A model generated the notes under the pieces. The model was not told where the DNA came from. It ran no database searches and was given only the letters and a program-made list of their open reading frames with translations. DNA of 64,000 nucleotides from Candidatus Aenigmatarchaeota archaeon. GTDB lineage: Archaea > Aenigmatarchaeota > Aenigmatarchaeia > Aenigmatarchaeales > JAHLMR01. The position numbers were made by a program, and so were the translations under genes. The stretch lies in contig JAHLMR010000001.1 of the NCBI GenBank assembly GCA_018920255.1, positions 1,058-65,057 of the forward strand, read 5' to 3'. Shown here one piece after another: positions 7,056 to 54,893 of this stretch; positions within the stretch are counted from its first letter, which is position 1, and every line of letters starts with the position of its first letter.

Positions 7056-8300
7056 TTATTTATTAAAAATTTCTTCAAGAAATTTTTCTATTTTATTATA
7101 AATGTGATCAGGAATGTTTAATGTAATCGTTCTTGTCCTTCCATATCTTCCTTTTGATATTATTCTTGTGCTTATTATTCCAAATAAATCTAATTCTGCT
7201 ATAAGATCACTTATTCTTCTTGTTGTAAGCTGTTTTAATCTATGTTCTTTACAAATTTTAATATATTGTTCTATAACATCTGAAGTATATATTTCTTGTG
7301 AGTTTCCATTTAAAGATTTTTGCGGATTTGATTTTACAAGCCTACATATTGCATAAAGAATAGCTTGACTTTGCTTTGGTTGCAGTCTAACTATTTCTAA
7401 AATATTATCTGTATCAATTTTACTTTCTGCTAAATCAACGTGCTTTAATCTAACCTTTGAATCCCCTTCTCTTTCAGCTAATTCTGCTGCTACTCTTAAA
7501 AGATCTAACGCTTTTCTTGCATCTCCATTTTCTTGTGCTGCTAATGCAGCACATTTTTCAATCACTCCTTCTTCAATAGCATCATCAGAAAAAGCTATTT
7601 TTGCTCTTTGTTTTAATATGTCAATAAGCTCAATAGCATTATATGGTGGAAATATAATTTCTTCCTCATTTAAACTTGATTTAACTCTTGGATCTAATTT
7701 TGATATTAAATTTAAATCATTTGTTATACCTATTATAGAAATTTTTGCTTTCTTTAATTCTTGATTTATACGTGTTATGTTGTATAGTATTTCGTCACCT
7801 GTTCGGTATATCAATGCATCTATTTCATCTATTATTAAAATAATAATCCTTTCTTCTGTATCTATAACATCATAAAACATTTGATATATTTTTTGTGTTG
7901 GCAGTCCAGTAAACGGTACTTCGACATTAAATTCTTTTAATATTTGTGCTATAAGTCTATATTCTGTATCAGCAGAATGTTTTAATTTGCAATTTATGTA
8001 TATAACCTTTATTTTATGACCTGTACTTTCAGCTGCTTTTTCTAAATGATTACAAACAAACCTAGTAACACATGTTTTTCCTGTTCCTGTTCTTCCGTAA
8101 ATAAATATATTACTTGGTTTTGATCCTCTTAATGCTGGTGCTAATATTTTACTTATTGTATTAATTTGTTCTTCTCTGTGTGGTATTGTTTCAGGTGTAA
8201 AAGAAATAGTTAATGCATTCCTTTGTATAAAAATCGGTTTTGATTCTAAATACTTGTTAAAAATATTTGTTATATTGTTAGCATTATTATTAACATCCAT
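7056..8300 (-). CDS. cdc6: Orc1/Cdc6 replication initiator (full length: AAA+ plus C-terminal winged helix)
   Basis: N-terminal signature FTPETIPHREEQI, Walker A IYGRTGTGKT and Walker B IIILIIDEIDAL are present. The C-terminal winged helix is ~414 aa from the start. A GGAGG RBS lies upstream. Confidence 0.9.
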   Translation of the reverse strand: MDVNNNANNITNIFNKYLESKPIFIQRNALTISFTPETIPHREEQINTISKILAPALRGSKPSNIFIYGRTGTGKTCVTRFVCNHLEKAAESTGHKIKVIYINCKLKHSADTEYRLIAQILKEFNVEVPFTGLPTQKIYQMFYDVIDTEERIIILIIDEIDALIYRTGDEILYNITRINQELKKAKISIIGITNDLNLISKLDPRVKSSLNEEEIIFPPYNAIELIDILKQRAKIAFSDDAIEEGVIEKCAALAAQENGDARKALDLLRVAAELAEREGDSKVRLKHVDLAESKIDTDNILEIVRLQPKQSQAILYAICRLVKSNPQKSLNGNSQEIYTSDVIEQYIKICKEHRLKQLTTRRISDLIAELDLFGIISTRIISKGRYGRTRTITLNIPDHIYNKIEKFLEEIFNK

Positions 8301-13044: not shown

Positions 13045-14040
13045 ATGTTATTATATGAAAAAATTTTAAATAAAATTAGAAATAAATTTCAAAATAAAAA
13101 TATAATTATTACAAATTCAAAAAATATACAGTGGCTATCAGGAAAAGTAGATAATTTTGGTATAATTGTAATTACAAAAGATAATCAATATGTTTTTACA
13201 ACCGAAGGTTTTGCTCCAAGGTTTAATAATAAAATTTATGAAATAATAACGTTTGAAAAATTAAATTCTGAAAAAATAAAAGAAAAACCTCTTAAAATGA
13301 TATTAAATTATCTTAAAATAAAGAATGTTGTGTCAGATATTAAATATAAAAATATAAAGAATGTTTCACAAGAAATTTTAAAATTAAGATCTATAAAGTT
13401 TAAAGAAGAAATAAAATTATTAAAGAAAGCAAGGGAGATAACAGAAAAATCAATTAATTATGTAATAAAAAATATTTATGAAGGAATAAAAGAAATAGAA
13501 ATAGCAGGCTTACTTGAAATGAAAATGAGAAAATTGGGTGCAGAATGTTTTTCATTTAATACTATTGTTGCATCAGGAAAAAACTCCTTTTTAACTCATA
13601 CAACACCAACTAATAAAAAATTAAATAAAAATGATATAATTCTAATAGATGCTGGTGCAGTGTATTCTGGATATTCTGCAGATATAACAAGAACAATATG
13701 TTTCGGTGAAAATAAAGAATTTGAAAGAATAAATCAAACACTTCAAGAAATAAATAAAAATATTTTAGAAAAAATAAAAGTTGGAGTTAAAATAAAATAT
13801 ATCGATAATTTTTATAAAAACTCATTGTTAAAATTAAATTTTAAATATCTTCATGGAGTTTGTCACGGAATTGGTGTTGATGTTCATGAACATCCAAGTA
13901 TTTTTTCAAACGATAAATTTGAAGAGGGAAATGTTTTTACTATAGAACCAGGAATTTATATTCAAAATAAATTCGGAGTAAGATTTGAAGATATGTATTA
14001 TATAAATAAAAGAGGTGAATGTACATGCTTAAACAAATAG
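13045..14040 (+). CDS. M24-family Xaa-Pro aminopeptidase/prolidase
   Basis: Pita-bread fold motifs: DAGAVYSGYSADITRT, HGVCHGIGVDVHEHP, FTIEPGIY, VRFEDM. Confidence 0.75.
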   Translation: MLLYEKILNKIRNKFQNKNIIITNSKNIQWLSGKVDNFGIIVITKDNQYVFTTEGFAPRFNNKIYEIITFEKLNSEKIKEKPLKMILNYLKIKNVVSDIKYKNIKNVSQEILKLRSIKFKEEIKLLKKAREITEKSINYVIKNIYEGIKEIEIAGLLEMKMRKLGAECFSFNTIVASGKNSFLTHTTPTNKKLNKNDIILIDAGAVYSGYSADITRTICFGENKEFERINQTLQEINKNILEKIKVGVKIKYIDNFYKNSLLKLNFKYLHGVCHGIGVDVHEHPSIFSNDKFEEGNVFTIEPGIYIQNKFGVRFEDMYYINKRGECTCLNK

Positions 14041-15317
14041 CAAAAGAATTTGTTAAAAGTTTTCCATGCGGAAGAAAGGAAAATAAAAAAATAGAATATT
14101 TTAAGAAAAAGTATGGTAAAAATTTTGAAGAAATTTTAGAAATGAAAACTTTTTTTGAAAGTAATTTAAATCAGGAACAAAGAAAAATTCTATCAGAATT
14201 AATGAAACCTATAAATGGTCCAATTGTTTATAAAAAAGATAATAAATATTATGTAAATGATAAAATTGGAGAATGTTTAAGAATTGTTTATTCTGATTTT
14301 GAAGAACCAAGAAATTTAGCTTTATTAATAGCAGAAGAATACTGGAAAAGAGGAGTACACGTTTCTTTAATACCAACCCTATCATCTATTTCAAGAAAAC
14401 ATTTACAGGTTATTCCAGAATATACAGCTGCAGAACTTCCAGAGCCATCAAAAATCTTTGCAGAAAAATTTGATGCAAGAATTTTTATAGGTGGAGATGA
14501 AGATGATAACTGGATAAGAGGTTTAGAAAGTAAACAATTACTATCTGCTCCATCAACACAATATTTAAGACAAATTATGGATAAAAGAAAAGTCAGATGG
14601 TGTGTCTTTGGTTGGCCGATAAAAAAGAAAAAATATTATGTTAAACCAGAATTTTATAGAAAAGTATTTATAGAATCAATAAAAAGTACTTTTTCGAAAG
14701 AGGTAAAAGAATATTGTAATTATTATAAAAAAGCACTTGAAGGTTGTAGTGAAATTAAAATTACTGCAAATGATGGAACAGAATTAACCTTTAACATAAA
14801 AAATAGACCAATTTTAGTTGCAGACGGAATAATCGATGAGAATGATATGAAAAATGGGGATGTTGGTTTAAATATTCCTGATGGAGAAGTATTTTTAGCA
14901 CCTCATGAATATTCTGCTAACGGAAAAATAAAATTTGATTTTGTTGCAACACATGGATTTGGTCTTATTAAAAATCTTTGGATAGAATTTAAAGATGGAA
15001 AAGTTATTAATTTTAAGGCAGATGGATCAGGAACAAAAAGATTTAAAAAATTTTTAGACTCTAACACAGGAGATAAAGATAGAATAGCAGAGTTTGGAAT
15101 TGGAACAAACCCATCAGCAAAATTTATAGGTGAAACTATTGTTGATGAAAAAATTTTAGGAAGTATTCATATTGCAATAGGAAGTAATCAAGGAGCATAT
15201 CATGGAAAAAATGTTGCATCAAGCCATTTAGATATGATAAAAATTATGAAAGGAAAACAAGGAAATTGTTGGGCAGATGGAAAATTAATTATGAAAGATG
15301 GTATGCCAAATTTATAG
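14019..15317 (+). CDS. Aminopeptidase, M29 (AmpS/PepS)-like
   Basis: C-terminal block EFGIGTNP...GSIHIAIGSNQGAYHGKNVASSHLDMI resembles M29 aminopeptidase T. It overlaps the preceding M24 peptidase gene by about 20 nt. Confidence 0.5.
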   Translation: MYMLKQIAKEFVKSFPCGRKENKKIEYFKKKYGKNFEEILEMKTFFESNLNQEQRKILSELMKPINGPIVYKKDNKYYVNDKIGECLRIVYSDFEEPRNLALLIAEEYWKRGVHVSLIPTLSSISRKHLQVIPEYTAAELPEPSKIFAEKFDARIFIGGDEDDNWIRGLESKQLLSAPSTQYLRQIMDKRKVRWCVFGWPIKKKKYYVKPEFYRKVFIESIKSTFSKEVKEYCNYYKKALEGCSEIKITANDGTELTFNIKNRPILVADGIIDENDMKNGDVGLNIPDGEVFLAPHEYSANGKIKFDFVATHGFGLIKNLWIEFKDGKVINFKADGSGTKRFKKFLDSNTGDKDRIAEFGIGTNPSAKFIGETIVDEKILGSIHIAIGSNQGAYHGKNVASSHLDMIKIMKGKQGNCWADGKLIMKDGMPNL

Positions 15318-16619
15318 TTTTTCTAAATATTCCTTTAAATCATTTGTTGCTATTTTAAGCGATAAAGGATTCTTTTCATTTTTTATTTTCTCATATGTTT
15401 CTTTTTTAAGACAATTTTCAATTTTTATATTTAATTTAGATTCAACATTTTTTATTGCTTGATAAGTTTCTGAATCATATTTAAAATAACAAATTATTTT
15501 TTCATAATTTTCAATATGAGCTTTTAAAAATTTCAATATTCTTTCTGTTGTAACTTTTATATAAAGCTCTTTTATTTCTTTTGTTTCTTCCCATTCAGGC
15601 CAATCATAACTATTAAATGGATAATAGTTTACAAATTCATAAGGAATAACCCCAGGACTACTAATAACTACTAAATGTATTTTTTCATAATTTTTTAAGC
15701 TTTTTATAGAAGATTTTATTGCATTATGAAGTTTAGAAAGATAGTATGGTTTTTTGTATGAACAAGGAATAAATAAAAGAATAGTTTTATCTTTAGGAGG
15801 TTTATAAAACCTTTGAAAATAATCTTGCCAAACTTCATAATATGGATGTATTAATTGTTCTTTTCCAGCACCAATTATTTTTATCATTTTTTCTTTATGA
15901 AACTTGGGTATAAATGAAAAGTTATTAAACTCTTTTTCACATTCTGGATAATCTTTAACAATTTCATTAAACTGCTTTTCATCAAGTGGCTTCCATTTCC
16001 CAGAAATAAATAAATCAAAAATAGGAGCGTTTGAATGAGGAAATGTATTAATTAATACGATTGTGTCAGAATATTTTTTTGCAAACTCAACAGATTTTTT
16101 AACCTCTTCTTTTAAATCTTTAACAAAAGGAAGTCCAACCATAAGATAAGTACGTACTTTAAAGCCATTTTTTCTAATTATTTCTGAAGCTTTAATAAAA
16201 TCTTCTACAGTAAACCCCTTTTTATATAATTTTAAAATTTCGTTGTTTGCTATTTCAAGCCCAATTGCAACAGATAAATCTAAACCCTTAAAATCAGATA
16301 AATTCTCATCATTAATAAATTCTGGTCTAGATTCAATTATTAATTTTTTAATATTATTAGATATACATTTTTTAACAAAATATTGTCTAATTACCTTCGG
16401 AAATTGCTTATCATCTAAAAAACTTCCGGAGGTAAAAAGTTTTATTTCTTCTATTTTTTCCTTTACATTTTCTTTTTCAATATCTCTAAAAATATTATCT
16501 ATCTTTTCTTTTAATTTTCTAATACTTGGTTTTGGCCCTATTATTCTTCCCCATCCACATCCAAAACATTCTCCCCAAGCACATTTTCCAGAGGTTAGTA
16601 TAATTGTTTTTGATTTCAT
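15312..16619 (-). CDS. Radical-SAM-like domain fused to an ArcS-type catalytic domain (archaeosine synthesis)
   Basis: Start trimmed to the MKSKTIIL Met (CAT at 16617-16619), because the longer ORF overlaps tgtA. The N-terminal Cys cluster is GKCAWGECFGCGWG (CX4CX2C). A radical-SAM barrel-like segment follows (IIESRPEF..., VAIGLEIANNEIL...YLMVGLPF). The C-terminal half carries IPCSYKKPYYLSKLH, matching the ArcS signature PCX3KPYX2SX2H. Confidence 0.6.
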   Translation of the reverse strand: MKSKTIILTSGKCAWGECFGCGWGRIIGPKPSIRKLKEKIDNIFRDIEKENVKEKIEEIKLFTSGSFLDDKQFPKVIRQYFVKKCISNNIKKLIIESRPEFINDENLSDFKGLDLSVAIGLEIANNEILKLYKKGFTVEDFIKASEIIRKNGFKVRTYLMVGLPFVKDLKEEVKKSVEFAKKYSDTIVLINTFPHSNAPIFDLFISGKWKPLDEKQFNEIVKDYPECEKEFNNFSFIPKFHKEKMIKIIGAGKEQLIHPYYEVWQDYFQRFYKPPKDKTILLFIPCSYKKPYYLSKLHNAIKSSIKSLKNYEKIHLVVISSPGVIPYEFVNYYPFNSYDWPEWEETKEIKELYIKVTTERILKFLKAHIENYEKIICYFKYDSETYQAIKNVESKLNIKIENCLKKETYEKIKNEKNPLSLKIATNDLKEYLEKL

Positions 16620-16671
16620 ATTTTTTAATTTAAAATTAAAATATTTAAAAACTGAATATGAAATTATTTTT

Positions 16672-18399
16672 ATGAATTTTGAGATAATAGATAGAGATGC
16701 TGCAGGTAGAATAACAAAATTAGAAAATAATGGTAAAAAATTAATTCTTCCAGATGTTGCAATAGTTATAGATCCAAATAAAAACCTAATAGCACCAAAA
16801 GAACTATCTTCTAATTTCAAAACAAAACTAATAATTACAAATTCATATTTAATAAAGAAACATAATATTGATGTTAAAATAAATGAGTCTGGGGGTTTGC
16901 ATAATTTCTTTAATTTTAATGATTTTATAATGACTGATAGTGGCGCATATCAAACAATGTTTGGCGGGAAAATAAAAACATCAAATAAAGAGATTATTAA
17001 TTTACAAAAAATTCTTAAGCCAGATATTGCTGTTTTTTTAGATGTTCCTAGTGCAGATTTAGAATTTAAGGAAGCTAAAAAAACTGTTAAAGAAACATTA
17101 AAAAGAGCTAAAGAATGCAAAGAATTAGTTATAAAGGATATTGAACTGCAAAAAATTCTTTGGGCCGGACCAATTCAAGGAGGAAGTCATTTAAACCTTC
17201 TTAAAAAATCTGCAACTGAAATGAATAAGCTTGATTTTGATATTTATCCTGTTGGTTCTATTGTTCCAAAGCTTATAAGATATGATTTTTTAACTGTTGC
17301 AGAAATGATATTAACATGTAAACAGAATATTGATTTAAATAAACCTATTCATGCATTTGGATTAGGTCTGCCACAAGCATTATCTTTTTTTACTGCTTTA
17401 GGTGTAGATATGTTTGATTGCGCGGCATATGCACTTTTTGCATATGATGATAGGTATATGTCTTTAGAAGGTACACACTATTTAAGAGATTTGAAAGAAT
17501 TTCCTTGTAACTGTCCTTTATGCTCAAAATCAGAACCAAAGGATATTTTAGAAATGGAAAAGTCTGAAAGAGAAAAATGGCTTGCAAAACATAATTTATA
17601 TGTAACATACGGAGAATTAAAAACAATAAGAACGGCAATTAGAGAAAATTGGCTTTGGGAATTAGTACAACAGCGTGCACGTGCACATCCAAATCTTCTT
17701 TTTGCTTTATATCATATTTTGAAAAAATATTCTAAATGGCTTATGTGTTTTGAACCAATAACAAAAAAATCAGCAATTATGTGGTCTGGTGAAGAAACTG
17801 CTTATAGACCGGAAATTTTAAGAGCGATTAAAATATTAAGAAAAATAAAATCTTCTAAAAAAATAAACATATCACCATTTGGAAAAGTTCCAGCAGGACT
17901 TTATGGAGTTTACCCGTTTTATCAAAGTATTTTTCCGTACAATAAAAAAATAAGAAAAATAAACCCAAAAACAGTTATAAAAGATACTCTTAATTTTCAA
18001 TTTAAATCTGGAGCAGGTAGCATAATTAAAAATTTTAAAATAGAATTTTCAAAAAATACAGGAAAAATAAGAAGAATATATGATAAAAATAATAACCTTT
18101 TAGGAACTATAAGAGCATATGATGGTTTATTTTTACCGACAAAAGAAGGAGTAAAATTATTAAAAAATTATATGAAAAAAGTAATTGTAGAAGATGATGA
18201 TGCAATAAAATTTATAAAACAAGGAAAATCTATTTTTGTGAAATTTATAAAACCAAAAGATGAAATATATCCAGGAGAAGAAGTTTTAGTAATTGATAAA
18301 AAAAATAATATTATAGCAGAAGGTAAAGCACTTTTAAATACTATAGAAATGAATCAATTTAAAAGAGGTGTCGCTATAATTACAAGATTAATATTCTAA
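16672..18399 (+). CDS. tgtA: Archaeosine tRNA-guanine transglycosylase with C-terminal PUA domain
   Basis: Start set at MNFEIIDRD (ATG 16672), because the upstream part of the listed ORF overlaps the divergent gene. Contains the TGT catalytic region (IMTDSGAYQ..., zinc site CNCPLCS) and a C-terminal PUA-like segment (GEEVLVIDKKNNIIAEGKAL). Confidence 0.8.
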   Translation: MNFEIIDRDAAGRITKLENNGKKLILPDVAIVIDPNKNLIAPKELSSNFKTKLIITNSYLIKKHNIDVKINESGGLHNFFNFNDFIMTDSGAYQTMFGGKIKTSNKEIINLQKILKPDIAVFLDVPSADLEFKEAKKTVKETLKRAKECKELVIKDIELQKILWAGPIQGGSHLNLLKKSATEMNKLDFDIYPVGSIVPKLIRYDFLTVAEMILTCKQNIDLNKPIHAFGLGLPQALSFFTALGVDMFDCAAYALFAYDDRYMSLEGTHYLRDLKEFPCNCPLCSKSEPKDILEMEKSEREKWLAKHNLYVTYGELKTIRTAIRENWLWELVQQRARAHPNLLFALYHILKKYSKWLMCFEPITKKSAIMWSGEETAYRPEILRAIKILRKIKSSKKINISPFGKVPAGLYGVYPFYQSIFPYNKKIRKINPKTVIKDTLNFQFKSGAGSIIKNFKIEFSKNTGKIRRIYDKNNNLLGTIRAYDGLFLPTKEGVKLLKNYMKKVIVEDDDAIKFIKQGKSIFVKFIKPKDEIYPGEEVLVIDKKNNIIAEGKALLNTIEMNQFKRGVAIITRLIF

Positions 18400-27031: not shown

Positions 27032-27832
27032 CTATTTATGATAAATATCTTTTATTCTTTCTATTGCCTTTAATACGTCGCACATTTCAATTTTTTCAGA
27101 ATTTCTATTTTCTGCATTTTCAGCAGAATTTTTTAATAAGAAAAGCCCAACTCTTAAATCACCTATTTCATATGTTTTTCTTACAATTTCTTCAAATGCT
27201 TCATATTCAAAACTATTTGGTTTAAATGCCATAAATTCTCTTTCTCTTAAAATACCTCTAATTTCTTCAAAATTATATTTTTTAAATTCTATTCTTTCTA
27301 GAAGTAATCTTGATAAAAGTCTTTCATCTAATCTGATAATATTTTCAGATGTATTTGTTATTAAAATTATTGATTTATATTTTATATCTTCAAGTATTCT
27401 ATAAATAAAATTCCAATCATGAAGTCTATCAACTTCATCAAAAGCAAAAACAACACCTTCATAAGTATTTAATTTTTTTATGATAATATCTATAAGTTCC
27501 TCAGGATATCTTTCATTCGTTCTTATACCAATTTGTTCAGCAACATAATAGATTATTTTATTATTTGTATCATGTTTCCAACAATTTATATAAATAGTTA
27601 GATAATTCCCAACATTTTCTTCAATCATTTTTCTGAAAATAAATTTTACGCATGCAGTTTTTCCTATTCCAGGACTTCCTGTTATAAGTATATTTCTTCC
27701 ATTTCTTTTCAATAAAAGAGGTTTAATACATTCTGCAATATATTTATGTTCTTCTTCTCTGTATGGAAGTAGTCTTGGAAGGAAACTTGATTCCAAAACC
27801 CCAGGATTTATTAAAAGGTTCATTAATATCAC
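27032..27832 (-). CDS. Orc1/Cdc6-type AAA+ domain protein lacking the C-terminal winged helix
   Basis: Classic N-terminus FLPRLLPYREEEHKYIAECIKPLL, Walker A ILITGSPGIGKTA and Walker B VVFAFDEVD are present. The protein ends at 266 aa with no wH domain. Confidence 0.65.
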   Translation of the reverse strand: MILMNLLINPGVLESSFLPRLLPYREEEHKYIAECIKPLLLKRNGRNILITGSPGIGKTACVKFIFRKMIEENVGNYLTIYINCWKHDTNNKIIYYVAEQIGIRTNERYPEELIDIIIKKLNTYEGVVFAFDEVDRLHDWNFIYRILEDIKYKSIILITNTSENIIRLDERLLSRLLLERIEFKKYNFEEIRGILREREFMAFKPNSFEYEAFEEIVRKTYEIGDLRVGLFLLKNSAENAENRNSEKIEMCDVLKAIERIKDIYHK

Positions 27833-48795: not shown

Positions 48796-49662
48796 TTACA
48801 CCATTATTTTTTTAGCTTCTTGTATTAACTCAATAATTTTTCTTTTATTAATACCAGTTTTAGATTCTATTTCTTCGGGTTTAAATTTAAATAAATCTTT
48901 TAATAACATAAATCTTGCGTTTGAAAACGCATTTAAAGTTTCTTTATCTAAATTTCTTAACAAGGTTATTGGATATAAGTTTCTTTTTTCTATCATAACT
49001 TCAAGCCCATATCCAGCAGGAAATCTCCAACCAAGAAGTTTCATTGACTTACAATTTGCATATTGAATAGCATCTAAAGAAAATTTAGTATTACATACAA
49101 GCCATGGTTTATCAAATTTCTCACATTTTCCAGCCTTCCAACCGTCTATTAAATCAAGAAACCTTGCGTATGTATATAACACTTCCTTTAAACCTGTATA
49201 TATTCCTGAAATATTATGATATTTTAACTCAATCATATATCTTATAGGAGAAGGCCTTTCAAAAATTCTTGATTTAGGAAATTCTTCAGCTATTATATCT
49301 ATTTCATGATTTACACATCCACCAGAAACAATTTGTCTTAGTCTTGTTTTATAATTATATTCATTAAGAATTTCAGCAAAATAATTTTCAAAAGTATAAC
49401 CAGCAGGTCCTAATGCCATAATAGCATATTTTAAGTTATATTTTGCTGCGGCTTCAGGCTTTTTTTCTTCTAATATTTTTGTTGCTATTTCAAGTATTTC
49501 CCTTGTGCTTATTCCATCATAAAGTCTTGATTTAATTTCACGAAGTACTAAATTTGCAAGTTCTTTTGATGCTCCAGAACGTATTATAGTTTTATATATT
49601 TTATTTTCGTTAAATAATTCCCTATCTCCAGAAGCTTTTGTTACATAAATTTCTTTTTTCAT
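48796..49662 (-). CDS. ATP-cone domain protein fused to a PD-(D/E)xK (Mrr-like) restriction-endonuclease-fold domain
   Basis: N-terminal ATP-cone (IYVTKASGDRELFNENKIYKTIIRSGAS...). The Mrr_cat-like block is GYTFENYFAEILNEYNYK...EIDIIAEEF...YMIELKYH, arranged as D...ExK. It is oriented divergently from nrdD. Confidence 0.55.
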   Translation of the reverse strand: MKKEIYVTKASGDRELFNENKIYKTIIRSGASKELANLVLREIKSRLYDGISTREILEIATKILEEKKPEAAAKYNLKYAIMALGPAGYTFENYFAEILNEYNYKTRLRQIVSGGCVNHEIDIIAEEFPKSRIFERPSPIRYMIELKYHNISGIYTGLKEVLYTYARFLDLIDGWKAGKCEKFDKPWLVCNTKFSLDAIQYANCKSMKLLGWRFPAGYGLEVMIEKRNLYPITLLRNLDKETLNAFSNARFMLLKDLFKFKPEEIESKTGINKRKIIELIQEAKKIMV

Positions 49663-49843: not shown

Positions 49844-52183
49844 TTGTTTATGAAAAAAGAAATATTAAATCAAAATTTAGTTGAAAATTTTTATTATGAA
49901 GATAAAAATAAAATTAATTTCTGGATTGCAAGAATGGAAAAATATAGCAAAGATGCTGTTATTCAATCATGTTTAAATTCTGGAGCAACAGAAGAAGTTG
50001 CAAAAAAAGTTGCTGAACAAGTAGATAAATTTGTTGATAGTAGAATGAAAATGTCTGAAGTTCGCCCACTTATTTTTACATTTTTAGAGAAATATGATCC
50101 AATTTCTGCAAAAAAATTTAAAGGCCATGAATTATATGTTAGGACATCAAAATTTACATATGAAAAATTTGATAGAGAAAAAATTAAGCAATCTTTATTA
50201 AGAGAAACAGAAATATCTGAAGACGCAGCAGAAATTATAACTAATGAAGTTGAAAATTTTATAAGAAATGCAAAATATGAAATAGTTTCATCATCTCTTA
50301 TTAGAGAATTAGTTAACTCTAGACTTCTCGTTCATGGGCTTGAAAAAATTAGAGCAGAATATACAAGAATAGGAATGCCTGTTTGGGATGTAACAACTCT
50401 TATTAATCAAGGTTCAAATGAAAACGCTAACCTTCAATATAACCCAGAAACAATTCATAAACTTATTGCTGATAGCATACTAAAAGAATATACTCTTATA
50501 AAATTACTTCCAAAACACATAGCAGATTCTCATTTAAGAGGAGAAATTCATATTCATGATTTAGATTATTTTGCATTAAGACCGTTTTGCTTTAGTCATG
50601 ATATGAGATTTTTCTTAAAAAGAGGTTATATTTCAGATGGTCAGGGAATTCATACAGCAACAGCAGGACCAGCAAAACATCCAGAAGTAGCAGTTTTACA
50701 TGCAGCTAAATTTCTTGCAAGTTCTCAAACTAATTGTGCAGGAGGACAAGGTTATAATTGGTTTAACGTTTTATTATCACCATACCTACAAGGTCTTTCT
50801 TATGAAAGAATAAAACAATTAGCACAAATGTTTTTATTTGAAATGTCTCAGATGTATGTTGCAAGAGGCGGGCAAACAGTATTTTCAAGTATAGATATAG
50901 AACCAGAAGTTCCTAGTGTTTTAAAAAATGTTCCAGCAGTCCTTCCTGGAGGAATAGTTAAAGAAAATGTTACTTATGAAAATTTTCAAGATGAAACAAA
51001 TAAATTCTTTAAAGCAATAATTGAAGTTTATACTCAGGGAGATGCAAAGAAAAAACCATTTAACTTCCCAAAATGTGAAGTAAAGGTTTCTAAAGATATT
51101 ATAGAAAAATATAAAGAAGAAATGTTTGCTGTTGCAGAATTAGCAGCAAAGTTCGGAACTCCATATTTTTTTGTACAACAAGATTATATGCCAGAGTATA
51201 GTTGTTATCAATGTTGTAGCTATTTAATGGATTTAAGCAACCAGAATTCTGAATCAGATTTATATAATGGTACAGTTCGTGGCGGAGCACTACAAGTTGC
51301 AACTTTAAATCTTCCAAGAATTGCTTATGAGTCAAGAGGAGATGATACTAAATTATTTGAATTAATTAGAGAAAGATTAGAAATTATAAGAGAACTAATG
51401 TTTATAAAATATCATATTATTAAAAAAAGATTAAAACAAGGAATTTTACCATTTCTTTCTCAACCAGTTAATGAAAAGGGAGATACATATTTAAATCCAG
51501 ATAAAATGAGTTTTGAAATAGGAATGATAGGTTTAAATGAAATGCTTAAAGCACATCTTGGATATGAACTTCATGAGAGTAAAGATGCATGGACATTTGG
51601 ACTTAGAGTTATAAAAGAAATGTGTGATATTGCAAAGGAGTTTAATAAAACAAATGAAATAGGAGGACATTTTGCTATATCAAGAACTCCTGCAGAAAGT
51701 TGTTCGCACAGATTAGCTAAAATAGATTTTAAAGAATTTAATGGAAGAGCAATAGTACAAGGTGATAAAAATTCCGGGGCAATCTATTATACAAATAGTA
51801 CTCATATAAGACCATCTGCTGAAATATCTATTTGGGATAGGATAAAAATTGAATCATCATTTCATCCACTTTTAGTTGGGGGTGCTATGCTTCATATTTG
51901 GTTAGGTGAGGCATTTCCAAATCCACAAGCAATTTTTGAATTAAATAAAAAAATTATAAATAATACCCTTACTGCATATTATGCATATACAAAAGATTTA
52001 ACTGTTTGTAGAAAATGTAATTTTGTATATGGACAGGCAACAAAATCTTGTATAAATTGCGGTTCTCAAGAAGTTGATATTTATTCAAGAATAACAGGTT
52101 ATTATCAAAATCTAGGAAGTTGGAATGAAGGAAAAAAAGCAGAGTTTTTTGAAAGAAAAAGATATGTAATAAAGGAGGTATAA
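49844..52183 (+). CDS. nrdD: Anaerobic ribonucleoside-triphosphate reductase (class III)
   Basis: N-terminal ATP-cone, large barrel, C-terminal zinc ribbon CRKCN...CINCG and glycyl-radical motif SRITGYY. Confidence 0.9.
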   Translation: MFMKKEILNQNLVENFYYEDKNKINFWIARMEKYSKDAVIQSCLNSGATEEVAKKVAEQVDKFVDSRMKMSEVRPLIFTFLEKYDPISAKKFKGHELYVRTSKFTYEKFDREKIKQSLLRETEISEDAAEIITNEVENFIRNAKYEIVSSSLIRELVNSRLLVHGLEKIRAEYTRIGMPVWDVTTLINQGSNENANLQYNPETIHKLIADSILKEYTLIKLLPKHIADSHLRGEIHIHDLDYFALRPFCFSHDMRFFLKRGYISDGQGIHTATAGPAKHPEVAVLHAAKFLASSQTNCAGGQGYNWFNVLLSPYLQGLSYERIKQLAQMFLFEMSQMYVARGGQTVFSSIDIEPEVPSVLKNVPAVLPGGIVKENVTYENFQDETNKFFKAIIEVYTQGDAKKKPFNFPKCEVKVSKDIIEKYKEEMFAVAELAAKFGTPYFFVQQDYMPEYSCYQCCSYLMDLSNQNSESDLYNGTVRGGALQVATLNLPRIAYESRGDDTKLFELIRERLEIIRELMFIKYHIIKKRLKQGILPFLSQPVNEKGDTYLNPDKMSFEIGMIGLNEMLKAHLGYELHESKDAWTFGLRVIKEMCDIAKEFNKTNEIGGHFAISRTPAESCSHRLAKIDFKEFNGRAIVQGDKNSGAIYYTNSTHIRPSAEISIWDRIKIESSFHPLLVGGAMLHIWLGEAFPNPQAIFELNKKIINNTLTAYYAYTKDLTVCRKCNFVYGQATKSCINCGSQEVDIYSRITGYYQNLGSWNEGKKAEFFERKRYVIKEV

Positions 52184-52185
52184 AT

Positions 52186-52362
52186 ATGTCAGATTTAGAA
52201 TTTTATAAAAACGGTTTTGAAAATAGAAAAAGAACTTGTATATACTGTGGTGAAAAATTTTGTACAGGAACACGTATAACTGGAACATTAGATGGTTCAG
52301 ATCCAGAATATCCTTTTGTTGAAAGAAAAAGTTGTGGATGGTGCAAAGAACTTGAAGATTGA
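52186..52362 (+). CDS. 58-aa mini-protein homologous to the NrdD C-terminal zinc-ribbon/glycyl-radical module
   Basis: Sequence MSDLEFYKNGFENRKRTCIYCGEKFCTGTRITGTLDGSDPEYPFVERKSCGWCKELED. A strong AGGAGGT RBS lies 6 nt upstream, and the start is 2 nt after the nrdD stop. Confidence 0.4.
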   Translation: MSDLEFYKNGFENRKRTCIYCGEKFCTGTRITGTLDGSDPEYPFVERKSCGWCKELED

Positions 52363-52603
52363 AGTTTATTATACGAAAAACTGTCCAAAATGTCCTGCAG
52401 CAAAACAAATTTGTAAAGAATTAGCAAAAGAATTTAATTTAGAGTATTCAGAAATAGATATAGAAGAAAATTTAATAGATGCTCTTCAAAAAGGAATAGC
52501 ATCAGCACCAACAGTTTTAATTGATGGAAAAATTGTATCAAGATCTTCAGTACCAGAAAAAGAAAAATTAATAAAGATTATCAAGGGAACTTCAAATGGA
52601 TGA
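52292..52603 (+). CDS. Glutaredoxin/NrdH-like redoxin
   Basis: CPKCP active site in KIEVYYTKNCPKCPAAK. The real start is probably internal (TTG 52352, LKIEVYY), because the upstream part overlaps the 58-aa ORF in another frame. Confidence 0.55.
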   Translation: MVQIQNILLLKEKVVDGAKNLKIEVYYTKNCPKCPAAKQICKELAKEFNLEYSEIDIEENLIDALQKGIASAPTVLIDGKIVSRSSVPEKEKLIKIIKGTSNG

Positions 52604-53330
52604 AATAATTAAACTAGGGGGTATTTTAGATTTTACAACAGTTGATTGGCCAGGAAAAATAGCATCTATTGTTTTTCTTTATGGTTGTAATTTTAAATGT
52701 CCATATTGTTTTAATTCTGATTTAGTTATTGGAAATAATTTTAAGGAAATTGAAATTTCAAAAATAGTTGCTTTATTAAAATCAAATAAAGATTTTGTAG
52801 ATTCTGTTGTTATTTGTGGAGGTGAGCCAACAATTCATGGAGAAAAGTTAGTTAAGTTATGCTCTTTATTAAAAGAATCAGGATTTAAAATAAAATTAGA
52901 TACAAACGGAAGTAATCCAGAATTAGTTGAAAAATTAATTAAAAACAAACTTATAGATTTTGTCGCATTAGATATAAAATCAGACTTTCAAGAAAAAAAT
53001 TATGAAAGGGCTTCTGGTGGATTTACTGACATGCAAAAAATTAAAAATACACTTAATATTCTTATTAATTCAAATATAGAATATGAATGTAGAATACCAG
53101 TAATACCAAATTTAAATCAACATTTGATTAAAAACATAGCAAAGGAAATAACTCAAGCAAAAACTGTAGTTTTAGAACAATATATTTCTTCTGATAAAAC
53201 AATAGATAAAAATTTTAAAATTATAAATTCACCAAGTAGAGAAGAGTTAATAAATTTAGCAAAATTCTTTAAGAATGAAATTGTAAAAATAAGAACTAAA
53301 GAAATGGGAGAAGAAATTTTAACAAGTTAA
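52596..53330 (+). CDS. nrdG: Anaerobic ribonucleotide reductase activating protein (radical SAM)
   Basis: CNFKCPYC cluster motif near the N-terminus and a GGEP SAM-binding motif. Confidence 0.85.
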   Translation: MDEIIKLGGILDFTTVDWPGKIASIVFLYGCNFKCPYCFNSDLVIGNNFKEIEISKIVALLKSNKDFVDSVVICGGEPTIHGEKLVKLCSLLKESGFKIKLDTNGSNPELVEKLIKNKLIDFVALDIKSDFQEKNYERASGGFTDMQKIKNTLNILINSNIEYECRIPVIPNLNQHLIKNIAKEITQAKTVVLEQYISSDKTIDKNFKIINSPSREELINLAKFFKNEIVKIRTKEMGEEILTS

Positions 53331-54804: not shown

Positions 54805-54893
54805 TGGTAGCCCCGGTAGGATTCGAACCTACGTCTCAAGGTTTCTTCCAATTGACCAGAGCCTTGCATGCTTGACCGCTACACCACGGGGCT
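54805..54893 (-). tRNA. tRNA-Gln(CTG) with a 13-nt canonical anticodon-loop intron; CCA encoded
   Basis: Minus-strand sequence AGCCCCGTGGTGTAGCGGTCAAGCATGCAAGGCTCTGG[TCAATTGGAAGAA]ACCTTGAGACGTAGGTTCGAATCCTACCGGGGCTACCA. It has an A1-U72 pair, a CAAGG/CCTTG anticodon stem and a GTAGG/CCTAC T stem. Confidence 0.6.

What the first reader, a model, noticed from the sequence alone, without database searches (positions are those of the whole stretch)
15312..16619. Single polypeptide combining a radical-SAM-like domain with the ArcS catalytic motif, divergent from tgtA (archaeosine pathway fusion)
The C-terminal half contains IPCSYKKPYYLSKLH. This is an exact instance of the PCX3KPYX2SX2H motif that defines archaeosine synthase (ArcS) and its relatives. 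The N-terminal half has a CX4CX2C cluster (CAWGECFGC) followed by radical-SAM barrel-like blocks (ESRPEF; AIGLEIANNEIL; YLMVGLPF), reminiscent of RaSEA, the radical-SAM partner of ArcS. In characterised Euryarchaeota, ArcS and RaSEA are separate proteins. ArcS there also carries TGT-like and PUA domains, which this protein lacks. Here the two activities appear fused in a 436-aa protein, transcribed head-to-head with tgtA (16672-18399) across a 52-bp shared promoter region. The cysteine spacing is non-canonical for radical SAM.
Basis: partly seen in the sequence, partly recalled or inferred. Interest (0 to 1): 0.6.

Follow-up and report, generated by a model that had tools for sequence, protein, structure and literature searches.

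The report
Single-chain archaeosine synthase (RaSEA–ArcS fusion)
This gene joins, in one 435-residue protein, the two enzymes (a radical-SAM lyase and the lysine-transferring core of ArcS) that studied archaea use as a two-protein complex to finish the tRNA base archaeosine; the fusion is real, lies next to the enzyme of the preceding step, occurs in many poorly studied archaeal lineages, and I found no description of it.

Summary
Window 15312-16619 (-) encodes a 435-aa protein. Residues 2-208 match RaSEA (TIGR01210, E 1.9e-38) and residues 264-409 match the ArcS C1/DUF5591 core. The PCX3KPYX2SX2H motif occurs once in the window and in 0 of 200 shuffles.

It is not a frame error. All 120 listed database homologs have both domains and similar length. 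At least 137 species genomes encode it, in DPANN phyla and also in Korarchaeia-like Thermoproteota, Desulfurococcales, Methanomethylicota and Asgard MAGs. AlphaFold gives one compact protein (pLDDT 95.7, pTM 0.89).

tgtA lies within 10 kb in 25 of 80 genome loci, in two different arrangements.

Compared with canonical RaSEA, the fusion family has a shorter cluster loop (CX4CX2C, not CX7CX2C). It lacks the N-terminal extension and the Cys-rich C-terminal tail. Compared with ArcS, it lacks the TGT-like, C2 and PUA domains.

The most likely function is a minimal one-chain archaeosine synthase: preQ0-tRNA to preQ0-Lys to G+.

NCBI labels the family only "DUF5591 domain-containing protein", and no paper I could search describes it. 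I rate it a new variant of a known kind, of moderate interest.

The parts
15312..16619 (-). Fusion gene: 435-aa RaSEA-like radical SAM domain plus ArcS C1 (DUF5591) domain, stop codon included
   Evidence: ORF and translation. Pfam and NCBIfam domain matches. All 120 listed homologs have both domains and similar length. AlphaFold model pLDDT 95.7, pTM 0.89.
15930..16619 (-). Radical SAM domain (residues 1 to about 230), RaSEA-like partial TIM barrel
16557..16583 (-). Predicted [4Fe-4S] cluster motif C13-X4-C18-X2-C21 (CAWGECFGC)
   Evidence: C13, C18 and C21 are invariant in 64 aligned family members. 117 of 120 homologs have CX4CX2C; the 3 exceptions are shorter proteins of 396-405 aa. Canonical RaSEA has CX7CX2C in the same place.
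15846..15929 (-). Junction segment (residues 231-258), containing G250 and H258, which are also conserved in free-standing RaSEA
   Evidence: The alignment with canonical RaSEA shows homology up to the GAG...H segment. After it RaSEA continues into HNCxxC...CxC, while the fusion continues into the C1 domain. The model is confident across the segment, with block pLDDT 84-97.
15315..15845 (-). ArcS C1 / DUF5591 domain (residues 259-435), Rossmann-like
15726..15767 (-). ArcS signature PC-X3-KPY-X2-S-X2-H (PCSYKKPYYLSKLH; C286, K290, P291, Y292, S295, H298)
   Evidence: Only match in the window and 0 in 200 shuffles. C286, K290, P291, Y292 and S295 are invariant and H298 is at least 90% conserved in 64 members. 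The same C, K, P, Y and S are invariant in the alignment with canonical ArcS and C1-only proteins.
16620..16671 (.). 52-bp A+T-rich divergent intergenic spacer between the fusion gene and tgtA; presumed to hold both promoters
   Evidence: Sequence read directly. Promoter function is inferred and was not tested.
16672..18399 (+). tgtA, archaeosine tRNA-guanine transglycosylase (ArcTGT), the enzyme of the preceding pathway step
   Evidence: TIGR00432 433.9 bits (cutoff 350). Pfam TGT, TGT_C2 and PUA above cutoff; TGT_C1 weak. tgtA lies within 10 kb of the fusion gene in 25 of 80 other genomes.

Best explanation
The gene encodes a minimal, single-chain archaeosine synthase. The pathway would run as follows.

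1. ArcTGT, encoded by the divergent neighbour tgtA, replaces G15 of tRNA with preQ0. This is established for the family; membership here rests on the HMM score.

2. The C-terminal C1/DUF5591 domain adds L-lysine to the nitrile of preQ0, giving preQ0-Lys. This is inferred from T. kodakarensis ArcS. Cys286 of the PC motif is the likely nucleophile, which is my inference.

3. The N-terminal radical SAM domain binds a [4Fe-4S] cluster through C13, C18 and C21. It cleaves SAM and uses the radical to break the C-N bond of the lysine adduct, leaving the formamidine of archaeosine (G+). This is inferred from RaSEA.

The covalent fusion replaces the obligatory ArcS-RaSEA complex of Euryarchaeota. tRNA specificity would be set by ArcTGT, because the TGT-like, C2 and PUA domains of ArcS are absent.
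For: - **Domain identity.** RaSEA is by far the best radical SAM family match (E 1.9e-38; next is Elp3 at 3.6e-12). The ArcS C1 match is clear.
- **Catalytic residues.** The cluster cysteines and the ArcS-motif residues are invariant across 64 diverse members and nearly universal in 120. Eighteen core residues are invariant between the fusion and RaSEA proteins that pass the TIGR01210 cutoff.
- **Gene linkage.** tgtA lies within 10 kb in 25 of 80 genome loci. It is divergent at 26-53 bp in the window, L015, L030 and L063. It is immediately downstream on the same strand (17-29 bp between the matches) in two Thermoproteota loci, L057 and L062.
- **Independent pairings of the same two domains.** A reverse-order C1-RaSEA-like fusion sits next to a TGT gene (P0149). 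A split pair of adjacent genes also exists (P0145 with a 544-aa rSAM protein).
- **Published biochemistry.** T. kodakarensis ArcS is active only in complex with RaSEA and needs no more than a 5'-phosphorylated preQ0 nucleoside as substrate (PMC11298593). A fused enzyme without a PUA domain is therefore plausible.
Against: - No biochemistry exists for any member of this family.
- The protein scores below the curated equivalog cutoffs of both RaSEA (132.5 against 212) and ArcS (64.7 against 440).
- Its cluster loop is 3 residues shorter than in RaSEA, and the Cys-rich tail of RaSEA (HNCxxC...CxC) is missing. If that tail holds a metal site needed for catalysis, the chemistry could differ.
- No tRNA-binding domain is present.
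- I could not test whether genomes with the fusion lack canonical ArcS, RaSEA, QueF-L and Gat-QueC.
- No preQ0 biosynthesis genes were found among the roughly 45 window ORFs annotated.
- tgtA is not adjacent in most loci, for example in Altiarchaeota and Micrarchaeota.
Confidence: 0.7

Rival explanations
1. Same substrate class but different chemistry or product. The C1 domain might amidate preQ0 directly from ammonia, glutamine or asparagine, as reported in vitro for M. jannaschii ArcS. Alternatively it might attach another amine, with the radical SAM domain then making a 7-deazaguanine derivative other than G+.
For: - M. jannaschii ArcS is reported to make G+ directly from NH4+, Gln or Asn (PMC11298593).
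- Phage nt-1 ArcS2, a C1-only protein, yields dG+ in E. coli without any RaSEA (PMC10516641).
- The C half of the fusion is closer to C1-only proteins (32-39% identity) than to canonical ArcS C1 (25-31%).
- The fusion family differs from RaSEA in its cluster loop and its missing Cys-rich tail.
Against: - The radical SAM cysteines and 18 RaSEA core residues are strictly conserved, so the domain is under selection for a RaSEA-like job.
- A permanent fusion of the two domains, in several independent architectures, fits two consecutive steps on one substrate.
Confidence: 0.13
2. The enzyme acts on DNA, making dG+ as a DpdA/ArcS2-type system does, or on free preQ0 nucleotides or base, rather than on tRNA.
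For: - It has no PUA, C2 or TGT-like RNA-binding domains.
- Its C-domain resembles phage ArcS2, which acts on DNA.
- Related C1-only genes sit next to short TGT-only genes of DpdA-like size (L089).
- T. kodakarensis ArcS accepts nucleoside 5'-monophosphate.
Against: - The linked transglycosylase is a full ArcTGT with C2 and PUA domains that passes the TgtA equivalog cutoff, not a DpdA (NF041059 only 25.3 bits, cutoff 200).
- The surrounding genes are housekeeping ones: DnaG, aminopeptidases, LigT, RadA, aminoacyl-tRNA synthetases.
- T. kodakarensis ArcS does not act on the free preQ0 base, and its Km for the nucleotide is very high.
Confidence: 0.06
3. The fusion is an artefact: two adjacent genes merged by a sequencing or assembly frameshift, or a decaying pseudogene.
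For: One related reverse-order protein (P0181) rests on a single 2.2-kb contig and might be such a merge.
Against: - The identical protein occurs in two independent assemblies.
- All 120 listed homologs have both domains and similar length, and 137 species genomes carry the gene.
- Catalytic residues are invariant.
- The structure prediction is confident across the junction.
Confidence: 0.01

Closest known systems
[quoted passage not shown] 2019, as cited in PMC11298593)
   Same: It is the best-scoring radical SAM family (E 1.9e-38, model positions 14-226 of 313). Eighteen invariant core residues are shared, including the three cluster cysteines, SGS, ESRP-type E96, GLE and K134. The partnership with an ArcS C1 domain is the same.
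   Different: - The score is below the equivalog cutoff (132.5 against 212.15).
- The cluster loop is CX4CX2C, not CX7CX2C.
- It lacks the roughly 40-aa N-terminal extension and the C-terminal HNCxxC...CxC tail, which the C1 domain replaces.
- Its radical SAM domains form a clade separate from canonical RaSEA in a rough NJ tree.
ArcS (archaeosine synthase subunit alpha; NCBIfam NF040592; Pfam DUF5591 = C1 domain)
   Same: The C1 catalytic core has an exact PC-X3-KPY-X2-S-X2-H motif and a Rossmann-like fold matching AF0587/2q07.
   Different: - It lacks the TGT-like N domain, C2 and PUA.
- It is only 25-31% identical to canonical C1 domains.
- It has a 3-residue insertion (YDWPEWEET against YDIPV---TG).
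- It scores 64.7 bits against a cutoff of 440.
ArcS2 / C1-only DUF5591 proteins of phages and some archaea (Vibrio phage nt-1, STSV2; PMC10516641)
   Same: It has the same stand-alone-sized C1 core. Structural match to the nt-1 protein has TM-score 0.69 (normalised by the target). Identity to C1-only metagenomic proteins is 32-39%, and they share the YDW...ET insertion.
   Different: Those proteins have no fused radical SAM domain, pair with DpdA-type DNA transglycosylases and modify DNA. This protein is fused to a RaSEA-like domain and linked to a tRNA-type ArcTGT.
Queuine lyase (radical SAM; PDB 6p78, Clostridium spiroforme)
   Different: It is bacterial, acts on the free base queuine to give preQ1, and has no C1 domain.
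Elp3 radical SAM domain (PDB 6iad, 8ptx and others)
   Same: It is the closest solved relative by sequence (E 3.6e-12) and has the same CX4CX2C spacing in the archaeal enzyme (KCPHGKCIFC). Foldseek ranks it first.
   Different: Elp3 carries a GNAT acetyltransferase domain and modifies U34. The similarity covers only the barrel.

Membership tests
Radical SAM superfamily (PF04055) | Pfam score above the gathering cutoff | tested here: met
   54.6 bits against 29.5, residues 10-179.
Radical SAM superfamily (PF04055) | Three-cysteine motif near the N-terminus to bind the [4Fe-4S] cluster (classically CX3CX2C) | tested here: met
   Three cysteines are present and invariant (C13, C18, C21), with the variant spacing CX4CX2C. 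Archaeal Elp3 has the same spacing.
Radical SAM superfamily (PF04055) | Partial TIM-barrel fold | tested here: met
Radical SAM superfamily (PF04055) | Reductive cleavage of SAM | not testable with these tools
   Needs biochemistry.
RaSEA (TIGR01210 equivalog) | Full-length HMM score at or above the curated cutoff (212.15 bits) | tested here: not met
   132.5 bits. Only model positions 14-226 of 313 are matched. Free-standing RaSEA proteins score 293-381 bits.
RaSEA (TIGR01210 equivalog) | Cluster loop CX7CX2C (GCxWxxxGGCTxCG), as seen in members above the cutoff | tested here: not met
   The fusion has CX4CX2C. 0 of 120 fusion homologs have CX7CX2C.
RaSEA (TIGR01210 equivalog) | C-terminal Cys-rich tail (HNCxxC...CxC) | tested here: not met
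   Absent. The C1 domain replaces it after H258. Only 2 of 120 homologs match HxCxxC anywhere.
RaSEA (TIGR01210 equivalog) | Conserved catalytic-core residues of the barrel | tested here: met
   Eighteen invariant columns are shared with five RaSEA proteins above the cutoff.
RaSEA (TIGR01210 equivalog) | Physical partnership with ArcS | tested here: met
   Met in the form of a covalent fusion to an ArcS C1 domain, modelled as one compact unit with pTM 0.89. The geometry of the interface could not be inspected.
RaSEA (TIGR01210 equivalog) | Converts preQ0-Lys-tRNA to G+-tRNA | not testable with these tools
   Needs biochemistry or genetics.
ArcS (NF040592 equivalog) | Full-length HMM score at or above the cutoff (440 bits) | tested here: not met
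   64.7 bits. Only model positions 281-418 of 575 are matched.
ArcS (NF040592 equivalog) | C1 domain (DUF5591) with the PC-X3-KPY-X2-S-X2-H motif | tested here: met
   PF17884 69.8 bits. Exact motif at residues 285-298, conserved across the family.
ArcS (NF040592 equivalog) | TGT-like N-terminal domain | tested here: not met
   No TGT match in the fusion protein. The radical SAM domain occupies the N-terminus.
ArcS (NF040592 equivalog) | C2 and PUA RNA-binding domains | tested here: not met
   No TGT_C2 or PUA match. The protein ends about 30 residues after C1.
ArcS (NF040592 equivalog) | Lysine transfer to preQ0 in tRNA | not testable with these tools
   Needs biochemistry.
ArcS2 / DpdA-linked C1-only proteins (DNA dG+ systems) | Stand-alone C1 protein encoded with a DpdA-type DNA transglycosylase | tested here: not met
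   The protein is fused to a radical SAM domain. The neighbouring transglycosylase is TgtA (433.9 bits); the DpdA model scores only 25.3 against 200.
ArcTGT / TgtA (TIGR00432), for the neighbouring gene at 16672-18399 | Equivalog HMM score at or above 350, with TGT, C1, C2 and PUA architecture | tested here: met
   433.9 bits. Pfam TGT, TGT_C2 and PUA are above cutoff; TGT_C1 is weak.

The most novel reading that the evidence does not exclude
The RaSEA-C1 fusion is the main, and perhaps the only, archaeosine-finishing enzyme of most DPANN lineages and of several TACK and Asgard lineages. That would extend the lysine/radical-SAM route well beyond Euryarchaeota, to clades thought to lack ArcS. 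It would work without any RNA-binding domain of its own, either by docking on ArcTGT for direct hand-over of preQ0-tRNA or by recognising only the flipped-out nucleotide. The reverse-order and split C1/RaSEA-like pairs next to short TGT genes (L087, L089, L091) would then be a wider, unstudied set of C1 plus radical SAM modules for 7-deazaguanine chemistry on DNA or nucleotides.
Probability: 0.3. Interest if true: 0.6.

Novelty: new variant of a known kind. Interest (0 to 1): 0.45.

Why it matters
- **Independent support for the partnership.** A natural fusion of two proteins known to work only as a complex is genomic (Rosetta-stone) evidence for the ArcS-RaSEA partnership.
- **A compact model enzyme.** At 435 aa it holds both active sites. 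No ArcS-RaSEA complex or RaSEA structure turned up in the PDB searches here, so it would be a good target for structural and mechanistic work.
- **Better annotation.** It gives a specific, testable function to a family now labelled only "DUF5591 domain-containing protein" or "radical SAM protein" in at least 137 species genomes. It may fill the last step of archaeosine synthesis in DPANN, Korarchaeia-like, Methanomethylicota, Desulfurococcales and Asgard genomes.
- **Which parts are dispensable.** It shows that the TGT-like, C2 and PUA domains of ArcS and the Cys-rich tail of RaSEA are not needed in a natural enzyme.

Tried and rejected
- **Key papers not available.** Yokogawa et al. 2019 (Nat Chem Biol) and Phillips et al. 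2010 (JBC) are not held. I cannot exclude that one of them mentions the fusion. Nine full-text searches found no paper describing it.
- **AlphaFold database search.** The afdb50 library was not available.
- **Canonical genes near the fusion.** tblastn with bona fide ArcS and RaSEA against all 86 fetched loci found nothing outside the fusion gene and tgtA. This covers only about 10 kb on each side and is not a genome-wide absence test.
- **preQ0 genes in the window.** Annotation of about 45 window ORFs (30 Pfam-scanned here plus the precomputed annotation of L001) showed only housekeeping genes and no QueC, QueD, QueE or FolE. The one other radical SAM gene (52596-53330) sits beside NrdD and is most simply its activase.
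- **Frame error or merged genes.** Rejected.
- **Longer TTG-started ORF (15312-16820).** Rejected, because homologs start at the ATG at 16619.
- **Active-site distance.** I could not measure the distance between the two active sites, because model coordinates are not exposed.
- **NJ tree.** The tree has no support values and is only indicative.
Full report
**1. The observation**

The minus-strand ORF ending at 15312 translates cleanly from the ATG at 16619 into 435 residues. A longer TTG-started version reaching 16820 would overlap tgtA. It is not supported, because 63 homologs align from the ATG.

- CAWGECFGC at 16557-16583.
- PCSYKKPYYLSKLH at 15726-15767. This is an exact PC-X3-KPY-X2-S-X2-H match, the only one in the six-frame translation of the window, and none appears in 200 shuffles.

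Pfam places Radical_SAM at residues 10-179 and DUF5591 at 264-405, both above their gathering cutoffs. NCBIfam ranks RaSEA (TIGR01210) first for the N-half (E 1.9e-38; the next family, Elp3, scores 3.6e-12). It ranks ArcS (NF040592) first for the C-half (E 6.3e-18).

The neighbour at 16672-18399 (+) is a full ArcTGT. It scores 433.9 bits against TIGR00432 (cutoff 350) and has TGT, C2 and PUA above their Pfam cutoffs, with a weak C1 match. It is separated from the fusion gene by a 52-bp A+T-rich spacer.

**2. The fusion is real and widespread**

The identical protein occurs in an NCBI Aenigmatarchaeota MAG (GCA_038999735.1) and in an independent Logan assembly.

A search of 5.8 billion proteins returned 259 hits. 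All 120 listed hits have DUF5591, and 116 of them also carry a precomputed Radical_SAM hit. All but four (374-396 aa) are 405-464 aa long, and identity to the query runs from 45% to 99%. A scan of one genome per species found 137 genomes with the gene. The best 80 include:
- DPANN groups: Aenigmat-, Micr-, Nano-, Alti-, Nanohalo-, Iain-, Woese- and Parvarchaeota.
- Non-DPANN MAGs: Thermoproteota (one named Kor1), Desulfurococcales, Methanomethylicota/Culexmicrobium and Asgardarchaeum.

At 50% clustering there are about a dozen full-length representatives. AlphaFold2, given a 64-sequence alignment, predicts a single compact protein (mean pLDDT 95.7, pTM 0.89) with confident structure across the junction. 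The frame-error reading is therefore excluded.

**3. The two halves compared with the characterised proteins**

*N-terminal half against RaSEA.* I recovered free-standing RaSEA proteins that pass the TIGR01210 cutoff (293-381 bits) and a full-length ArcS that passes the NF040592 cutoff. Aligned with RaSEA, the fusion shares 18 invariant residues, including the three cluster cysteines, W15, the SGS segment, E96, GLE and K134. It differs in three ways:
- The cluster loop is three residues shorter: CX4CX2C in 117 of 120 fusion homologs, against CX7CX2C in most free-standing RaSEA.
- The N-terminal extension of about 40 residues is absent.
- The Cys-rich tail of RaSEA (HNCxxC...CxC) is absent. Homology runs up to a conserved G...H segment (G250, H258), and the C1 domain begins exactly where the tail would start.

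*C-terminal half against ArcS.* The fusion keeps the invariant C, K, P, Y and S of the signature and further conserved G, P, YD and T positions. It has no TGT-like, C2 or PUA domains, and it has a three-residue insertion (YDWPEWEET). That insertion is shared with a class of C1-only proteins of about 210 aa, to which the fusion is 32-39% identical. Its identity to canonical ArcS C1 is 25-31%.

In a rough neighbour-joining tree of radical SAM domains, the fusion proteins form one clade separate from canonical RaSEA. The TACK and Asgard members group together within it (no support values).

**4. Genomic context**

In the window the gene lies in a housekeeping region that includes DnaG primase, M24 and M29 aminopeptidases, LigT, RadA, RPA, Cdc6/Orc1, PolB, several aminoacyl-tRNA synthetases, FtsZ, ribosomal proteins and NrdD.

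Across the 80 genome loci, tgtA lies within 10 kb in 25:
- In DPANN it is upstream and divergent, from 26 bp to about 9 kb away, as part of a partly conserved LigT-tgtA ... fusion-M24-M29-DnaG block.
- In two Thermoproteota loci (L057, L062) tgtA follows immediately on the same strand, and the ORFs overlap. This is an independent, operon-like arrangement.
- Many Altiarchaeota and Micrarchaeota loci show no tgtA nearby.

No canonical ArcS or RaSEA lies within about 10 kb of any fusion gene.

**5. Other pairings of the same two domains**

- A 680-aa protein (P0149) has the reverse order, DUF5591 followed by a RaSEA-like domain. It sits directly after a 376-aa TGT-family gene on a bacterial-looking contig.
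- A C1-only gene (P0145) directly follows a 544-aa RaSEA-like radical SAM gene. The cluster also contains further radical SAM genes, an amidohydrolase, NUDIX and a Vut_1/YhhQ-type transporter.
- A C1-only gene (P0150) overlaps a 350-aa TGT-only gene.
- A possible ArcS(C1-C2-PUA)-RaSEA fusion (P0181) rests on one short contig and is of low confidence.

These recurrent pairings support a general functional coupling of C1 with RaSEA-like radical SAM domains.

**6. Mechanism**

Published work shows the following (PMC11298593; citing Yokogawa et al. 2019):
- T. kodakarensis ArcS transfers lysine to preQ0-15 only when it is complexed with RaSEA.
- RaSEA then converts preQ0-Lys to G+.
- ArcS needs no more than a 5'-phosphorylated preQ0 nucleoside as substrate and does not act on the free base.
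- ArcTGT determines which tRNAs are modified.

On that basis I propose that ArcTGT installs preQ0, the C1 domain makes preQ0-Lys, and the fused radical SAM domain removes the lysine carbon skeleton to leave G+. The covalent link replaces complex formation. The missing RNA-binding domains would be dispensable.

What is shown here is domain identity, residue conservation, compact fold and gene linkage. The chemistry of each step, Cys286 as the nucleophile and the source of tRNA specificity are inferred. The single tRNA gene in the window carries A14-G15, so the substrate position exists.

**7. Rivals**

- A different nitrogen donor or product is possible. M. jannaschii ArcS and phage ArcS2 make G+ or dG+ without a radical SAM partner, and the fusion lacks the RaSEA tail.
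- A DNA or nucleotide substrate is unlikely, given the full ArcTGT neighbour and the housekeeping context.
- An artefact is excluded.

**8. Known or new**

The family exists in databases but is named only "DUF5591 domain-containing protein", "radical SAM protein" or "hypothetical protein"; a few JGI entries call it archaeosine synthase. No NCBIfam model reaches its cutoff on the protein. None of the full-text searches found a description of a RaSEA-ArcS fusion. The recent literature describes the ArcS/RaSEA route as euryarchaeal. I could not read the two key subscription papers, so earlier mention remains possible.

I classify the finding as a new variant of a known kind. The chemistry and parts are known; the single-chain architecture is new, with specific losses and a phyletic range beyond Euryarchaeota.

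Interest is moderate (0.45). The finding is useful and testable but not surprising in principle, because fusion of obligate partners is a common evolutionary outcome.

Noticed in passing
L087 4364-6627 (JGI 3300033141 Ga0366833_1014825): A C1-only DUF5591 gene (P0145, 208 aa) directly follows a 544-aa RaSEA-like radical SAM gene. The cluster also has an rSAM-SPASM gene, an amidohydrolase, Radical_SAM_N2 plus rSAM, NUDIX, a Vut_1/YhhQ-type queuosine-precursor transporter, a nucleoside deoxyribosyltransferase-like gene and thymidylate kinase. It may be an uncharacterised 7-deazapurine nucleoside or nucleotide pathway.
   Followed up: partly
L091 4855-8043 and L092 (JGI 3300049473 Ga0499970_0000086): A 680-aa protein (P0149) has the reverse domain order: DUF5591 followed by a RaSEA-like radical SAM domain (TIGR01210 E 2.5e-38). 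It lies 16 bp downstream of a 376-aa TGT-family gene on a contig with RND efflux genes that looks bacterial. This is an independent fusion of the same two domains.
   Followed up: partly
L089 1795-3461 (ENA ERZ10759773): A C1-only DUF5591 gene (P0150, 212 aa; 38% identical to the C half of the window protein) overlaps the start of a 350-aa TGT-only gene. This is a DpdA plus ArcS2-like pair.
   Followed up: no
L090 60-1553 (JGI 3300041074, 2.2-kb contig): P0181 has partial C1, then TGT_C2, PUA and RaSEA (TIGR01210 202 bits, truncated). It is either a canonical ArcS fused to RaSEA or a frameshift merge of adjacent genes. Only one short contig carries it, so confidence is low.
   Followed up: partly
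Free-standing RaSEA proteins P0170, P0174, P0176, P0188, P0159 (alignment A2): Canonical RaSEA proteins carry a conserved four-cysteine C-terminal tail (HNCxxC ... CxC) and a CX7CX2C cluster loop. The tail looks like a second metal site. I found no description of its role, and the fusion family lacks it.
   Followed up: partly
window 54805-54893 (-): The only tRNA gene in the window (Rfam 55.8 bits). It has a 16-nt insertion in the anticodon-loop region that looks like an intron; ARAGORN reports an undetermined four-base anticodon. It carries A14-G15, the ArcTGT target position.
   Followed up: partly
window 49844-53330 (+): An anaerobic ribonucleotide reductase NrdD (779 aa, with an ATP-cone) is followed by a 244-aa Radical_SAM/Fer4_12 protein, most simply its activase NrdG. 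QueE has a similar Pfam signature, so this was not resolved further. An ATP-cone/AF1548-like protein lies upstream at 48796-49662 (-).
   Followed up: no
window 7056-8300 (-) and 27032-27832 (-): Two Cdc6/Orc1-type genes. The second is short (266 aa) and has no match to the C-terminal winged-helix domain. A family B DNA polymerase runs off the window start (1-2301).
   Followed up: no
window 15312-15317: The stop-proximal ends of the convergent M29 aminopeptidase gene (14019-15317, +) and the fusion gene (15312-16619, -) overlap by 6 bp, so no intergenic terminator space lies between them.
   Followed up: no
L062 9986-12974 and L057: In the two Thermoproteota loci the tgtA that follows the fusion gene shows only the TGT catalytic domain in Pfam at E<=0.001, with no PUA or C2 hit, although it is 554 aa long.
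   Followed up: no
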